Counted from the stretch's first letter, positions 7,656 through 44,954 are shown. The stretch is DNA of 64,000 nt from an uncultured Candidatus Saccharibacteria bacterium (GCA_964496425.1 CAZBZO010000001.1:140368-204367); one strand, 5' to 3'. Made by a program: numbers and translations. Notes: generated by a model from the sequence alone, not told the origin.

Positions 7656-7942
7656 TGGGGTGCCTATCGGGGTAATCTTTCCTTACCCAGTAGGTGATTG
7701 TACTCAATCACAGGAACAGTATACCTTTTCAATTCGCATATGCGAATAATGAAAAGCTTTTCGACCTCGGGATATCTCCCTCGACTCGAGTTTCGCCGCC
7801 GCTCAACTCGGTCTGGGCACCAGCTCGTCTATTTTTCCTACTGAAAAAATAAGACTCCGCTGTTTGATTCCCGAACGGAAGCAAAGCAGTTTGCTTCCTT
7901 AGGCACCATATGAAAAACCCGCAAATGCGGGTATTCAATAGG
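7656..7942 (-). repeat. tRNA-His-associated small element (family member 1)
   Basis: Begins after a terminator hairpin 3' of tRNA-His with a copy of the tRNA-His 5' end (catatGGTGCCTAagg). Ends in a duplicate of the tRNA 3' end (cccgataggcaccCCA). Carries conserved blocks shared with 13189-13392 and 44738-44881 and the hairpin ggaagcaAAGCAGTTtgcttcc. Confidence 0.5.
7913..7932 (-). terminator. Terminator hairpin directly 3' of tRNA-His (acccgcatttgcgggttttt on the minus strand)
   Basis: GC hairpin plus T-run. Confidence 0.5.
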
Positions 7943-8015
7943 GGTGCCTATCGGGAATCGAACCCGAATCGAAGGTTCCACAAACCTCAGTGTTAACCGT
8001 TACACCATAGGCACC
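7943..8015 (-). tRNA. tRNA-His (anticodon GTG) with encoded G-1
   Basis: Manual cloverleaf: G-1:C73, acceptor GTGCCTA/TAGGCAC, D-stem GTGT/ACAC, anticodon loop TTGTGGA, T-arm TCGGG-TTCGATT-CCCGA. Confidence 0.9.
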
Positions 8016-38499: not shown

Positions 38500-40209
38500 T
38501 TACTCCATCAGCATCCGCGCAATGCGGATTTCGTCAAAGGTAAAGGCGCTGCCGAGTTTTTCATACACGGGCGTGAGCTTATCAGTACCAGCTGCCTTAA
38601 ATGCCCGGTGGATTTCTGCCAGACCTTTTGAGATTTTGGGAGTCAAAAGCCGTAAAAGCTCGGTGCGATCGATCGCTCCTTGTTTAAAAAGTTTTTCAAT
38701 ATGATCAAATATCGTCCGGCTCTGCACCCCCCGCTCACGAGCGATGAGGGCAACCGTCATGCCTTCTTTCCATAACCCAAGCGTCACATCGTAAGTCGAA
38801 AGTTTTTTGCCAGTACGAGCTCTTTCACTTTTTTTGCTTTTTACGGCTTGCAGTGTGCCACCACAGGCGCGAACAAAGTTGTCATACATTTTTTGTAAAT
38901 CCGTAGCAGGTAATTTTGAAAATGCGAGCCGAGCTTCTTCAGAGCGAGCACGAAAGCTGGCATCTTCTTCCAAGATTGCTGGATGCACAGCCAATGCTTT
39001 CTGATTGATCCCGAGAAGATAGAGTCCGGAAAGTCGCCTAACACGGGAGAGTGCTACGTAGCCCTGGCCGTACTCAAATACCTGCGAGAGATCCATTACC
39101 GCTGCATCCAAGCTCATGCCTTGGCTTTTGTGGACCGTGATCGCCCAGGCCAAGCGTAGCGGGATCTGGCTGATGCTTGCCCGTACTACACCGTTTTCCT
39201 GCACACTCCACTCCATCGACTCAGCGATGACTTTGTGGCCACTTTTAGTGCGAATGATCGGGGCACCGGTATCGGTATCAAAATCCTCCACGGTACCGAG
39301 CGTGCCGTTTGCAAAATGCATAAGTGGATTATTTTTGGTAAACATCACGCTTGCGCCGATCTTAAGCGTTAAAGTTTCTGGAGAAAGACACCCTCGAGCA
39401 AGAGTGGCCACCAGCGCGTCCGGACCACGCGAAGACATTTCATATGTTTTTTGTCGACTGGTGAGCTTGCTGAGCGCATTGGTATTTAAACTATCAACAT
39501 CAGCATTGTGCGAAAAAAGACGAGTAATATCGGGGGGTGCTTGGGTGGGAGCGATCTGGCGCGACAGAATGTGTTCCATATGCACCTCGCCAATCTCACC
39601 CGCGCGCAAGGCTTGGAGCACGGAGAGAAAATGTTTGTCATCTTGGCGATATTGCTCGGTGAGATAGCACACAATCGGCCGAAGTGCTGCCCACTCTGGC
39701 GACTCATAGGCAAATATCGCCACCTGTTCGTCATCAAACATAGTTTGATCTTCGCTTCCATAATTGATTTTCTGAATTGGCGGCAGTTGGAAGAAATCGC
39801 CGACGAGTATCACTTGCATGCCGCCAAACGGCGCATCGTTTTGCCGTATTTCCTTTAGCACTTGATCAATCATCGAAAGCATCGATGGTGCGAGCATAGA
39901 AACTTCATCAATAATAAGAACCTGAGTGCGACTGACTCGCTTTGCTACGTATTCACTGCTCGCAATCTTGTCGAGATCGTATTTTGTAAGTGTCGTCTTA
40001 ATACCAATACCGCTCCAGGAATGAATTGTCATACCGCCGATGTGGGTCGCGGCAATACCAGTAGAGGCGGTAATAGCTGGCTCAATACTATGCTCGCGCA
40101 AATATGCCACATACGCGTTCACGGTATGCGACTTGCCAGCCCCTGGCTCCCCCGTCAGAAATACGTTGGCTCCTGTTTTTAAAATAGTAAGCGCTTGGGC
40201 TTGAGTCAT
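38500..40209 (-). CDS. PIF1/RecD-like ATP-dependent DNA helicase with a C-terminal helix-turn-helix-like domain
   Basis: Walker A GEPGAGKS; QVLIIDEVSM; helicase C-terminal blocks. Confidence 0.75.
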   Translation of the reverse strand: MTQAQALTILKTGANVFLTGEPGAGKSHTVNAYVAYLREHSIEPAITASTGIAATHIGGMTIHSWSGIGIKTTLTKYDLDKIASSEYVAKRVSRTQVLIIDEVSMLAPSMLSMIDQVLKEIRQNDAPFGGMQVILVGDFFQLPPIQKINYGSEDQTMFDDEQVAIFAYESPEWAALRPIVCYLTEQYRQDDKHFLSVLQALRAGEIGEVHMEHILSRQIAPTQAPPDITRLFSHNADVDSLNTNALSKLTSRQKTYEMSSRGPDALVATLARGCLSPETLTLKIGASVMFTKNNPLMHFANGTLGTVEDFDTDTGAPIIRTKSGHKVIAESMEWSVQENGVVRASISQIPLRLAWAITVHKSQGMSLDAAVMDLSQVFEYGQGYVALSRVRRLSGLYLLGINQKALAVHPAILEEDASFRARSEEARLAFSKLPATDLQKMYDNFVRACGGTLQAVKSKKSERARTGKKLSTYDVTLGLWKEGMTVALIARERGVQSRTIFDHIEKLFKQGAIDRTELLRLLTPKISKGLAEIHRAFKAAGTDKLTPVYEKLGSAFTFDEIRIARMLME

Positions 40210-41388: not shown

Positions 41389-41529
41389 GGCTGATATGTA
41401 TATTAAATATAATGTATAAAGGATTATCTATAAGTACGATAACGTAGGGCATAGTACCACAGAGATTGAAAAACCACAAATTATAGAGCGTACTTGATAC
41501 TTACTACTTTATACATCATACTTACTTCC

Positions 41530-42108
41530 ATGATTGGAAAAATATCCGGGCTTGTTGCCCACCTCACAGACAAATACGCCATCATTGAAGCTTCAGGGGT
41601 AGGATATAAAGTGTCGCTCACAGCAGATACTTTGGCTTCGCTCTCTCTTGGTGAGGTGGGCTCGCTTTGGACCTATCTTGCCGTGCGCGAAGATGCCTTA
41701 GATCTCTACGGCTTCTCGACACTTGAAGAGCATGATTTTTTTACCATGCTGATTTCCGTCTCTGGCATCGGACCAAAAGGTGCGCTCGGTATTCTCGCTG
41801 TCGCGAGCACCGATACGCTCAAACGTGCGATCGGCACTGGCGACACTGCCTACCTCACCAAGGTCTCAGGCATCGGTAAAAAAACAGCCGAGAAAATAGT
41901 GCTAGAACTTCGCGACAAACTCCATGCCCATGCTGAAACCAAAGAATCTCACGGCACGCTTCGCGCGGAGAGCGATGTCGTCCTTGCTCTTCAATCTTTG
42001 GGCTACTCGCAAAACGAAGCTCGCGATGCGCTTAAAGAAGTGCCTGTAACAATCGAGGGCACAAATGCCCGAATCAAAGAGGCACTCAAAATCTTGGGTA
42101 GTAAATAG
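41530..42108 (+). CDS. ruvA: Holliday junction DNA helicase subunit RuvA
   Basis: MIGKISG start, SVSGIGPK and VSGIGKKTAEKI helix-hairpin-helix motifs. Confidence 0.85.
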   Translation: MIGKISGLVAHLTDKYAIIEASGVGYKVSLTADTLASLSLGEVGSLWTYLAVREDALDLYGFSTLEEHDFFTMLISVSGIGPKGALGILAVASTDTLKRAIGTGDTAYLTKVSGIGKKTAEKIVLELRDKLHAHAETKESHGTLRAESDVVLALQSLGYSQNEARDALKEVPVTIEGTNARIKEALKILGSK

Positions 42109-44737: not shown

Positions 44738-44881
44738 TGGTCCGCCCGGTAGGAATCTCGACTACCGTCGCGGGTGAGTTTCGCTCGGACTAAAGTCCGA
44801 CAACGAAACTCCTTTCGATTTCTGCACGCGAGTGAAGCAGTTCACTCGTTCGAGGCGCCAAAATCCGCTTCGTGTATTTTG
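44738..44881 (-). repeat. tRNA-Lys-associated small element (family member 3)
   Basis: Shares the tcgact…gagtttcgc…ctcgg blocks and the hairpin gcgagtgAAGCAGTTcactcg. Ends in a duplicate of the tRNA-Lys 3' end including CCA (gattcctaccgggcggaCCA). Confidence 0.5.
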
Positions 44882-44954
44882 TCCGCCCGGTAGGAATCGA
44901 ACCTACGACCCTCTCCTTAAAAGGGAGCTGCTCTACCAACTGAGCTACGGGCGG
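44882..44954 (-). tRNA. tRNA-Lys (anticodon TTT)
   Basis: Manual fold: acceptor CCGCCCG/CGGGCGG, D-arm GCTC-AGTTGGTA-GAGC, anticodon loop CTTTTAA (G27-A43 mismatch), T-arm GTAGG-TTCGATT-CCTAC. Confidence 0.8.

What the first reader, a model, noticed from the sequence alone, without database searches (positions are those of the whole stretch)
7656..8015. tRNA-His followed by a 287-bp element bounded by copies of the tRNA's own 5' and 3' ends (family member 1)
Immediately 3' of the minus-strand tRNA-His(GTG) and its terminator hairpin lies a 287-bp non-coding segment. It starts with a copy of the tRNA-His 5' end including G-1 (catatGGTGCCTAagg, compared with acatGGTGCCTAtgg in the gene). It ends with a copy of the tRNA 3' end (ccccgataggcacc-C-CCA), preceded by a T-arm-like hairpin (gggtaa-ggaaaga-ttaccc). 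The distal copy encodes CCA, whereas the tRNA gene itself has CCT. This has the topology of an att core duplication left by site-specific integration into a tRNA 3' end, or of a tRNA-like RNA whose body is replaced by about 250 nt of structured sequence. The 287-bp segment has no coding capacity and no recombinase gene. Its interior shares conserved blocks with the elements next to tRNA-Arg and tRNA-Lys, so this is a recurrent element rather than random decay.
Basis: seen in the sequence. Interest (0 to 1): 0.8.

Follow-up and report, generated by a model that had tools for sequence, protein, structure and literature searches.

The report
Mirror-ended repeat element behind tRNA genes
The 287 bp after tRNA-His is one copy of a widespread, undescribed family of small non-coding elements in Patescibacteria that sit behind tRNA and tmRNA genes and carry both a mirror-image and a direct copy of that gene's last ~20 bases.

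Summary
The element's 5' end, however, is the reverse complement of the tRNA's 3' end, split by a conserved hairpin (P2). It is not a copy of the tRNA 5' end. The 3' end is a direct copy of the tRNA 3' end.

One P2-based pattern found at least 120 loci, almost all in Patescibacteria MAGs. These sit behind 23 tRNA anticodon types and behind tmRNA. In 65 of 88 copies the antisense segment matches the adjacent gene with 0-2 mismatches in 21 nt.

The elements are 113-383 nt, hold no ORF and are modular. They occur as tandem arrays, as truncated copies and as orphans. Relatives carry tRNA-His with no element. Five helices covary strongly, yet wobble pairs are nearly absent, whereas tRNA stems in the same genomes have many. 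The sense strand is rich in GNA-loop mini-hairpins.

Rfam, phage, plasmid and literature searches found nothing. No recombinase lies in the window.

Best reading, at moderate confidence: a non-autonomous, site-specific DNA repeat or mobile element that acts as folded single-stranded DNA. A structured RNA is not excluded. The His copy is a fusion of two units. The CCA end is not a family trait.

The parts
7943..8015 (-). tRNA-His(GTG) gene including G-1. Its last ~21 nt (T loop, T-stem 3' strand, acceptor 3' strand, C73) are the sequence 'S' that the element mirrors.
   Evidence: ARAGORN; Rfam tRNA 61.2 bits
7909..7940 (-). Spacer X: an imperfect palindrome that contains a terminator-like hairpin (ACCCGC-ATTT-GCGGGT plus a T run, 7932->7917). 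It is contiguous with S on one side and S' on the other.
   Evidence: (I2); tRNAs without the element in relatives lack it
7900..7907 (-). S' part 1: GGTGCCTA, the exact complement of the tRNA acceptor 3' strand plus C73. It pairs with both 7943-7950 and 7659-7666.
   Evidence: I9, I11; family statistics
7877..7898 (-). P2: the conserved 9-bp hairpin GGAAGCAAA-CTGC-TTTGCTTCC, flanked by A and GT. It is the family hallmark and its loop AACTGCTT is invariant.
   Evidence: I6; 518 of 531 pairs Watson-Crick with covariation across 59 distinct P2 sequences; genome scan
7863..7874 (-). S' part 2: TCGGGAATCAAA, the complement of the tRNA T-stem 3' strand and T loop.
   Evidence: I3: 13 nt, 92% complementary to 7951-7963
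7772..7862 (-). Core of unit 1 (type A): CAGCGGA-hairpin-GAGCTG, then GTGCCCAGAC-hairpin-GTCGAGGGAGAT. It is 82% identical to the tRNA-Arg copy.
   Evidence: model hit 7760-7908 at 46.7 bits, E=3e-10
7767..7771 (-). Internal partial S (CCCGA, the T-stem 3' strand) that closes unit 1.
   Evidence: read from the sequence; same layout as the inner units of L050
7672..7764 (-). Unit 2: a type B core without its own S' or P2 (TCGAAAAGCTTTTC...GAAAAGGTATACTG-P5-AGATTACC), with an extra hairpin inserted in the P5 loop.
   Evidence: model hit 7672-7759, model positions 47-109, E=0.006; comparison with type B copies
7657..7671 (-). Distal S: an exact 15-nt direct copy of the tRNA 3' end (CCCGATAGGCACCCC). 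A7656 completes a CCA.
   Evidence: D1; family: 51 of 88 copies have such a repeat
13192..13354 (-). Family member behind tRNA-Arg(TCT) (gene 13392-13464; X 13355-13391). It has S' GTGCCCCT, P2 at 13323-13344, T' GTAGGAATCGAA, a type A core and distal S at 13192-13205.
   Evidence: z -5.9; 57.6 bits, E=4e-13
44740..44859 (-). Family member behind tRNA-Lys(UUU) (gene 44882-44954; spacer 44860-44880). It has a type C core, a decayed S' (6 of 21 mismatches) and distal S at 44740-44753 followed by CA.
   Evidence: (88.5 bits; this copy was in the seed alignment)

Best explanation
**What it is.** It is a small (113-383 nt), non-coding, non-autonomous repeat element that is specific for the 3' end of tRNA and tmRNA genes in Patescibacteria (class Paceibacteria). 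It most likely acts as folded single-stranded DNA of the tRNA-sense strand.

**Anatomy, as shown by the sequences.** The order is: tRNA 3' end (S); spacer X, a terminator-like palindrome; S', the reverse complement of S, split between its acceptor part and its T-arm part by the conserved hairpin P2; one or more interchangeable cores, each a three-way junction; and finally a direct copy of S.
- S' can pair either with the tRNA's own end across X, or with the distal S across the core.
- Either pairing gives the same junction: an acceptor helix stacked on a T helix, with P2 branching where the D and anticodon arms leave a real tRNA.

**Mechanism, as inferred.**
- A trans-acting enzyme that has not been found, such as an HUH/Y1-type ssDNA transposase or a recombinase, recognises P2 and this junction.
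- S':S pairing sets the insertion point right after the tRNA-like end.
- Each distal S then regenerates a target, which produces tandem arrays.
- After insertion, S' is kept matched to the selected tRNA sequence by palindrome correction and gene conversion.
- The cores are homogenised or exchanged between loci at the conserved GGAATCGAA and GATTC joints.
For: **Distribution and target matching**
- At least 120 loci, nearly all Patescibacteria.
- 88 of 128 motif hits lie 11-62 nt 3' of a same-strand tRNA or tmRNA. These cover 23 anticodon types plus tmRNA.
- S' matches the neighbouring gene with 0-2 mismatches of 21 in 65 of 88 copies. Against other tRNAs the median is 7-8 mismatches.
- S' is the complement of the 3' strand, not a copy of the 5' strand.
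- A distal direct repeat is present in 51 of 88 copies.

**Signs of gain, loss and movement**
- Relatives with 84% and 61% identical VKOR neighbours have tRNA-His with neither the element nor X.
- Tandem arrays hold different core types.
- Three species-representative genomes with near-identical tRNA-Lys, X, S' and P2 differ in unit number and order.
- Orphan copies carry X but have only a partial S upstream.
- Truncated and decayed copies exist.
- Cores are near-identical at different targets in one genome, for example 98% between tRNA-Lys and tmRNA.

**Single-stranded structure**
- 95.3% of cells are paired versus 67.5% in shuffles, and 211 double-change cells versus 61.

**DNA-like rather than RNA-like evolution**
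- Element helices have about 11-20 G.U cells against 7-11 A.C cells. tRNA acceptor stems of the same loci have 58 G.U against 1 A.C.
- The sense strand carries GCGAAGC and GCGTAGC 23 times against 0 for their complements, and C-GNA-G 191 times against 53 for its reverse complement C-TNC-G. From my own knowledge, d(GCGNAGC) GNA loops are exceptionally stable DNA mini-hairpins.
- GC skew suggests that the element-bearing tRNAs are co-oriented with replication. If so, the sense strand would be the lagging-strand template (the orientation is an inference from the skew).

**Nothing else explains it**
- There is no ORF inside any copy and no Rfam family.
- There is no match in the phage, plasmid or virus collections.
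Against: - No transposase, integrase, HUH enzyme or reverse transcriptase was found in the 64-kb window.
- No such gene recurs next to the elements across the Patescibacteria loci examined.
- No autonomous copy was seen.
- No excision product and no same-species filled versus empty pair was observed.
- Elements at tRNA-Gln are conserved across several species with compensatory changes, while X and the flanks are unalignable. S' also followed a change in the tRNA acceptor stem in L088. Both look like purifying selection in place, so they fit a host function equally well.
- Within-genome similarity of cores can be gene conversion rather than transposition.
- The wobble-pair argument rests on small counts.
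- The RNA-parameter fold of the sense strand is 3.4 kcal/mol better than its complement in 42 of 51 copies. This is equally compatible with an RNA.
Confidence: 0.45

Rival explanations
1. It is a structured non-coding RNA gene or trailer. The element would be transcribed with the tRNA by read-through of X, or on its own. It would fold into an acceptor/T minihelix mimic (P1 plus P3) with P2 in place of the D and anticodon arms, be processed by RNase P and RNase Z, and serve a cellular role such as a decoy, a processing aid or a sensor for enzymes acting on tRNA 3' ends.
For: - Folds are very stable: z -7.0 and -5.9.
- All helices covary and the joining motifs are conserved, including tandem G.A next to P3.
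- The sense strand folds better than the antisense strand.
- Copies at tRNA-Gln are conserved across species, and S' tracks the tRNA.
- Loop motifs are strand-specific.
- Some distal copies end in N73-CCA.
Against: - A terminator-like hairpin usually separates the tRNA from the element, and there is no room for a promoter.
- P1 pairs N73 and C74, so the 3' end is not tRNA-like for CCA addition or charging.
- Wobble pairs are almost absent and are no commoner than A.C, unlike tRNA helices in the same genomes.
- Many copies are truncated, shuffled or orphaned.
- Presence is patchy between relatives.
- No Rfam match.
Confidence: 0.25
2. It is the remnant of classical site-specific integration. 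A tyrosine integrase encoded elsewhere, or now lost, integrated small circles or larger islands at the T-loop region of tRNA and tmRNA genes. What remains would be attL and attR plus a minimal attP-derived core, that is, a cis-mobilisable element.
For: - The direct repeat runs from the T-stem 3' strand to N74, as for elements that integrate at tRNA 3' ends.
- tmRNA is also a target.
- Tandem arrays occur.
- Empty sites exist.
Against: - The units are only 113-170 nt and no integrase gene was found in or near any copy.
- It does not explain the inverted copy S', the P2 hairpin inside it, or the three-way-junction cores with covariation.
- Specificity would have to be re-evolved for at least 23 tRNA species.
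- No related sequence exists in the phage, plasmid or virus collections.
Confidence: 0.1
3. It is a non-mobile by-product. tRNA terminators in these genomes are long palindromes that begin right at the tRNA end. Template-switch (quasi-palindrome) repair would extend them into the tRNA 3' end, creating S'. Illegitimate recombination and gene conversion would then spread the cores, with no dedicated enzyme and no function.
For: - tRNAs without the element often have terminator palindromes that start at the tRNA end.
- The S-X-S' palindrome is continuous.
- There is a microhomology joint and module shuffling.
- tRNA plus element evolves in concert.
Against: - It cannot explain the invariant P2 loop placed at exactly the same point of S' at every tRNA.
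- It cannot explain the conserved junction motifs across many Paceibacteria lineages.
- It cannot explain the orphan copies that carry a complete 5' module.
Confidence: 0.1

Closest known systems
IS200/IS605-family ssDNA transposons and their non-autonomous derivatives (PATEs); REP/BIME elements with RAYT transposases
   Same: - Small, extragenic, hairpin-rich and strand-specific.
- Arranged as mosaics or tandem arrays, with no ORF.
- In IS608 the insertion site lies 3' of a short target that base-pairs with a guide inside the element (my own knowledge). This is analogous to S:S'.
- The active strand is the lagging-strand template, which is compatible.
   Different: - Here the 'guide' is about 21 nt of Watson-Crick complement to a tRNA end, split by a conserved hairpin.
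- The ends differ at every target.
- No Y1/HUH transposase was found.
- REP's GTAG signature is absent as such.
Genomic islands, prophages and cis-mobilisable elements that integrate at tRNA/tmRNA 3' ends by tyrosine integrases
   Same: - Same targets: tRNA and tmRNA 3' ends.
- A direct repeat of the gene's 3' end.
- The gene stays intact.
- Tandem accretion occurs.
   Different: - About 100 times smaller.
- No integrase gene.
- Carries an inverted copy of the target plus a structured core.
- One family serves dozens of different tRNAs.
Folded single-strand recombination sites (integron attC; CTX-phi attP hairpin that mimics dif)
   Same: Two inverted segments of one strand pair to imitate a double-stranded target site, with extra-helical features that mark the strand. 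The structure, not the sequence, is conserved.
   Different: Those sites are recognised by known tyrosine recombinases (IntI, XerCD) and mimic attI or dif, not a tRNA gene end. No such enzyme is linked here.
tRNA-like domains of non-coding RNAs (tmRNA, bacterial Y RNA YrlA, viral TLS)
   Same: The 5' and 3' ends pair into an acceptor-like stem stacked on a T-like stem.
   Different: - There is no T loop.
- N73 and N74 are paired, and CCA is not conserved.
- The sequence copies the neighbouring tRNA.
- No Rfam hit.
- The substitution pattern is not RNA-like.
Split-guide nucleic-acid-guided systems (IS110 bridge RNA, TIGR-Tas; PMC12045711)
   Same: Two short target-complementary segments flank a conserved structured element. 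TIGR stem-loop arrays also have variable but always palindromic spacers.
   Different: - Both halves here pair with the same strand and are contiguous on the target.
- No IS110 recombinase or Tas (Nop-domain) protein is nearby.
- There are no 9-nt dual spacers with box C/D motifs.

Membership tests
tRNA-targeting integrative element (tyrosine integrase island / CIME) | Insert flanked by direct repeats of the tRNA 3' end | tested here: met
   15-nt exact repeat at 7657-7671 and 7941-7955; 51 of 88 family members have one
tRNA-targeting integrative element (tyrosine integrase island / CIME) | Integrase gene within or beside the insert, or demonstrably in the genome | tested here: not met
   No ORF in the 113-383 nt units. 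No integrase Pfam hit in about 48 window ORFs. None recurs near the loci examined. The rest of the genome was not available.
MITE | Family-constant terminal inverted repeats derived from a parent IS | tested here: not met
   The terminal inverted segments (S' and S) differ with each neighbouring tRNA
MITE | Short target-site duplication (2-10 bp) and a related autonomous IS | tested here: inconclusive
   The repeat is 13-21 nt and equals the tRNA end. No autonomous relative was seen in 120 loci.
IS200/IS605-type ssDNA element or PATE; REP/RAYT | Conserved single-strand hairpins, strand-specific, no ORF | tested here: met
   Covariation; strand-specific GNA-loop hairpins
IS200/IS605-type ssDNA element or PATE; REP/RAYT | Y1/HUH transposase (TnpA or RAYT) in the genome | not testable with these tools
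   Only 64 kb of the genome is held, and no such Pfam hit lies in it
Curated RNA family in Rfam 15 (tmRNA, Y RNA, ribozymes, introns, other families) | Score at or above the family's gathering threshold | tested here: not met
   Only tRNA and tmRNA hits in the window and in 15 loci. Nothing over the element at E<=10.
tRNA-like RNA with a chargeable end (tmRNA / TLS type) | Single-stranded N73-CCA 3' end and a T loop | tested here: not met
   P1 pairs N73 and C74. CCA follows 7 of 51 distal copies. The T loop is replaced by the core.
TIGR-Tas array | Tas (Nop-domain) gene beside an array of 9-nt dual spacers with box C/D motifs | tested here: not met
   No Nop-domain hit in the window ORFs. The unit layout differs from the one described in PMC12045711.
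Group I / group II intron | Intron core recognisable by a covariance model; interrupts a gene | tested here: not met
   No Rfam intron hit. The tRNA gene is intact and the element lies downstream.

The most novel reading that the evidence does not exclude
The element is a natural, reprogrammable, nucleic-acid-guided insertion system. A split ~21-nt guide (S'), held around a protein-binding hairpin (P2), would pair with the end of a tRNA or tmRNA gene and direct an unknown Patescibacteria enzyme to insert the element right after it. Retargeting to any tRNA would need only a rewritten guide. This would be a new counterpart to the IS200/IS605 guides and the IS110 bridge RNAs.
Probability: 0.2. 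Interest if true: 0.9.

Novelty: categorically new. Interest (0 to 1): 0.8.

Why it matters
- Patescibacteria have tiny genomes, yet many of their tRNA and tmRNA genes carry these structured tails. In the loci examined they break assemblies and blur tRNA-end annotation.
- I know of no bacterial repeat or mobile-element family whose two ends are rewritten to mirror whichever tRNA it follows.
- If an enzyme reads that match, this is a new guide-based way to choose insertion sites, and possibly a programmable one.
- If instead it is an RNA, it is a large new class of tRNA-end mimics.
- Either way it makes a testable link between tRNA gene ends, terminators and genome dynamics in an uncultured phylum.

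Tried and rejected
**Searches that found nothing**
- Rfam at gathering and at E<=10 returned only tRNA and tmRNA.
- Viral contig scans with the core pattern and the P2 pattern gave one chance hit in a high-GC phage contig and zero hits.
- blastn against the phage and plasmid collections gave no match.
- Literature searches found nothing that describes the element. They did find the paper on group I introns in Patescibacteria tRNAs (PMC13011429) and the TIGR-Tas paper (PMC12045711, read). Neither fits.

**The hunt for an enzyme or an autonomous copy**
- Pfam on about 48 window ORFs found none.
- ORF clustering around the Patescibacteria loci examined recovered only housekeeping neighbours.
- A suspected 1.3-kb autonomous copy in L075 was a chance repeat.

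**Ideas tested and dropped**
- tRNA-primed reverse transcription with S' as a primer-binding site. S' continues into the gene's non-CCA flank, so it matches the DNA, not the mature tRNA.
- An aminoacylatable or CCA-bearing RNA.
- Assigning the strand by wobble pairs was inconclusive.
- Looking for same-strain alleles with and without the element. The other assembly is identical and one lookup found no record.
- A sigma-70 promoter between X and S'. The only promoter-like site in the region lies inside the element core, and the count is no higher than in shuffled sequence.

Full report
**1. The observation**

The minus strand holds tRNA-His(GTG) at 7943-8014, with G-1 at 8015. A terminator-like hairpin follows at 7932->7917. 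Non-coding sequence then runs down to 7656.

The repeat finder confirms four features:
- a 15-nt exact direct repeat of the tRNA 3' end, at 7941-7955 and 7657-7671;
- an 8-nt exact inverted match of the acceptor strand, 7900-7907 against both 7943-7950 and 7659-7666;
- a 13-nt, 92% inverted match of the T arm, 7862-7874 against 7951-7963;
- a 9-bp hairpin between these last two, at 7877-7898.

Similar elements follow tRNA-Arg(TCT) and the tRNA that ARAGORN calls 'Stop(tta)'. That tRNA is a tRNA-Lys(UUU). Near-identical genes in L019, L029 and L050 are called Lys(ttt).

**2. Anatomy**

I call the last ~21 nt of the tRNA 'S'. It comprises the T loop, the T-stem 3' strand, the acceptor 3' strand, N73 and C74. 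The layout along the tRNA strand is:

S (end of the gene) - X - S' - core(s) - S (direct copy)

- S' is the reverse complement of S.
- S' is interrupted exactly between its acceptor part and its T-stem part by 'A - P2 hairpin - GT'.
- X is a terminator-like palindrome of A tract, GC stem and T tract. It is contiguous with S and S', so S-X-S' is one long hairpin with P2 as a side branch.
- S' can equally pair with the distal S, giving helices P1 and P3 and closing the core.

For tRNA-His the two readings coincide, because its acceptor stem is fully Watson-Crick. Across the family they differ. At 33 positions where the neighbouring tRNA has a G.U pair, the element carries the complement of the 3' strand 29 times and the tRNA's own 5' base once.

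The His copy is composite. A covariance model built from other members matches 7760-7908 as a full unit (46.7 bits, E=3e-10). It matches 7672-7759 as a core only (model positions 47-109, E=0.006). Unit 1 ends with a partial S (CCCGA, 7767-7771). Unit 2 is a type B core with an extra hairpin in its P5 loop, and it ends with the full distal S.

**3. A large family**

The organism is a Patescibacteria / Paceibacteria (CPR) bacterium, judging from the names of VKOR homologues.

A single scan of one genome per species used the pattern AACTGCTTNNNNNNCGTNNNRRAATCRAA, which covers the P2 loop and the T-loop complement. All but about seven chance hits are Patescibacteria MAGs.

- 88 of 128 motif hits lie 11-62 nt downstream of a same-strand tRNA or tmRNA gene. 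These cover 23 anticodon types plus tmRNA.
- With P2 removed, the reverse complement of S' matches the adjacent gene with 0-2 mismatches of 21 in 65 of 88 cases. Against other tRNAs the median is 7-8 mismatches.
- A distal direct copy of the last 13 nt (at most 2 mismatches) is present in 51 of 88 copies. Unit lengths are 113-383 nt, median about 137. The remaining copies are truncated or decayed at the 3' end.
- The pattern only admits T loops of the TTCGATT type. Other tRNAs in the same loci (Tyr, Phe, Ser, further Leu and Gly) show the same S-X-S' layout with variant P2 sequences. The family is therefore broader than sampled.

Behind the common 5' module there are at least four core types. 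Types A and D are related to each other, as are types B and C. There is also an optional 3' module, GATAAGCGTACTCGCGGTC.

**4. Evidence for gain, loss and rearrangement**

- Relatives whose neighbouring VKOR protein is 84% (L003) or 61% (L004) identical have tRNA-His in the same place, with neither the element nor X.
- Tandem arrays hold different core types behind one tRNA (L053, L097, L050, L075).
- Three species-level genomes share tRNA-Lys, X, S' and P2 at about 100% identity. They nevertheless differ in the number and order of units. They also show a microhomology joint (CGAGC) and a 55-nt insertion inside a P2 loop.
- Orphan copies lie far from any tRNA. They keep X and a complete 5' module but have only 3-10 nt of S upstream.
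- Within one genome, cores at different targets can be nearly identical while S' and even the P2 stem differ. Examples are tRNA-Lys versus tmRNA at 98%, L017/L051 at 90%, and the window's His and Arg copies at 82%.
- tRNA-Glu(CTC) and tRNA-Glu(TTC) in one genome are identical from tRNA nucleotide 1 to the end of the distal S, with unrelated flanks.

So modules are exchanged or homogenised inside genomes. Some of this could be gene conversion rather than transposition.

**5. Evidence for constraint**

An alignment of 25 type B/C members gives five helices, P1 to P5.
- 95.3% of cells are paired, against 67.5% in shuffles and 31-49% when partners are slid.
- 211 cells changed on both sides, against 61 expected.
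- In 59 distinct P2 hairpins, 518 of 531 pairs are Watson-Crick, with six covarying positions.

Elements behind tRNA-Gln in four or five species keep sequence and structure, with compensatory changes, while X and the flanks cannot be aligned. Two of these loci share a neighbouring gene at 88% identity. In L088 the tRNA acceptor stem changed and S' changed with it.

**6. RNA or DNA?**

Folds are very stable, with z of -7.0 and -5.9. The tRNA-sense strand folds better than its complement in 42 of 51 copies. That would suit an RNA.

Four observations point the other way.
- Element helices contain almost no wobble pairs, and no more G.U than A.C: about 11-20 against 7-11 cells. tRNA acceptor stems in the same loci have 58 G.U against 1 A.C.
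- Hairpin tips on the sense strand are rich in GNA trinucleotide loops and in the heptamers GCGAAGC and GCGTAGC:

| Motif on the sense strand | Count | Reverse complement | Count |
|---|---|---|---|
| GCGAAGC + GCGTAGC | 23 | GCTTCGC + GCTACGC | 0 |
| C-GNA-G | 191 | C-TNC-G | 53 |

  From my own knowledge, d(GCGNAGC) is a classic, unusually stable DNA mini-hairpin.
- A terminator-like hairpin normally separates the tRNA from the element, and there is no room for a promoter.
- S' continues into the gene's non-CCA flank, so it matches the DNA rather than the mature tRNA. P1 pairs N73 and C74. N73-CCA follows only 7 of 51 distal copies.

GC skew suggests the minus strand is the leading strand here. 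If so, the sense strand of the three element-bearing tRNAs would be the lagging-strand template, which is the strand exposed as single-stranded DNA (inference).

**7. What it is not**

- No Rfam family matches.
- Nothing similar is in IMG/VR, INPHARED phages or PLSDB plasmids.
- No ORF lies inside any copy.
- No integrase, transposase, HUH enzyme or reverse transcriptase is among about 48 window ORFs.
- No mobility gene recurs near the loci examined.
- TIGR-Tas arrays, IS110 bridge RNAs, group I/II introns, MITEs and integrase-borne islands each fail at least one defining feature (see the membership table).
- Full-text searches found no description of such an element.

**8. Most likely explanation and rivals**

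| Reading | Weight |
|---|---|
| Non-autonomous, site-specific repeat or mobile element acting as folded ssDNA of the sense strand | about 0.45 |
| Structured RNA: a tRNA-end mimic made by read-through | 0.25 |
| Relics of integrase-type integration | 0.10 |
| Enzyme-free by-product of palindromic terminators plus recombination | 0.10 |

In the preferred reading, S':S pairing together with P2 builds a mimic of the tRNA acceptor/T-arm junction. That junction marks the insertion point right after a tRNA-like end. The enzyme acts in trans and is unknown.

Shown here:
- the anatomy;
- the target matching;
- the wide distribution;
- the structural constraint;
- the patchy presence and the rearrangements.

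Inferred:
- the single-stranded DNA form;
- guide-directed insertion;
- the upkeep of S' by palindrome correction.

The conservation at tRNA-Gln and the co-evolution of S' with the tRNA keep a host function in play.

**9. Verdict**

The finding is real. The feature belongs to a large family for which I found no prior description. Its mechanism remains open.

Noticed in passing
window 12958-13049 (+), upstream of tRNA-Val; window 45050->44955 (-), upstream of tRNA-Lys: There is a second kind of module on the 5' side of tRNAs. It is a copy of tRNA nucleotides 1-12, then GTTCT, a hairpin, GG and TTGGTAGGTAT (the D-loop sequence). It ends exactly 52 nt before the real tRNA in both cases. The motif was not found in the 120 other loci.
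   Followed up: partly
window 44881-44954 (-): ARAGORN calls this tRNA 'Stop(tta)'. With the other register of the anticodon loop (CUUUUAA) it is tRNA-Lys(UUU). Near-identical genes in L019, L029 and L050 are called Lys(ttt). It is not a suppressor tRNA.
   Followed up: partly
window ~24030-24260 (-), just 3' of tRNA-Ser(TGA); L009 2967-3221 and L010 3926-4180, just 3' of tRNA-His: Small stand-alone GIY-YIG nuclease ORFs (77-84 aa; Pfam PF01541, E=3e-13) sit directly downstream of tRNA genes that lack the mirror element. They may be another tRNA-linked selfish or nuclease gene.
   Followed up: partly
element loci L012-L131 and window: tRNA genes with the element mostly end N73-C-A-A (N74-75 = CA in 43 of 51) rather than CCA or an unrelated flank. 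Many tRNAs without the element carry long A-tract/T-tract palindromic terminators that start at the very first base after the tRNA.
   Followed up: partly
L029 (about 100-260 nt 3' of tRNA-Lys): A P2 hairpin loop is interrupted by a 55-nt insert made of two tandem copies of CCGCCCGGATGAACCC(G/A)TTCGGA(C/T)GGGC. This is another small repeat nested in the array.
   Followed up: no
L001 (GCA_013558355.1 contig) versus window 8003: A short contig in another public assembly, which encodes an identical VKOR protein, ends inside tRNA-His. Several other loci also end at the element. This suggests the repeats break short-read assemblies.
   Followed up: no
window 38500-40209 (-): This ORF is a PIF1-like helicase with a C-terminal HTH_40 domain. 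The window also holds RuvA (41494-42108), RuvB (57775-58800) and RuvC (59430-59906). No link to the element was found.
   Followed up: no
window 17171-18919, 18947-20689 and 21528-23192 (-): Three adjacent large ORFs (554-582 aa) have no Pfam hit. One shows only a weak zinc-finger match.
   Followed up: no
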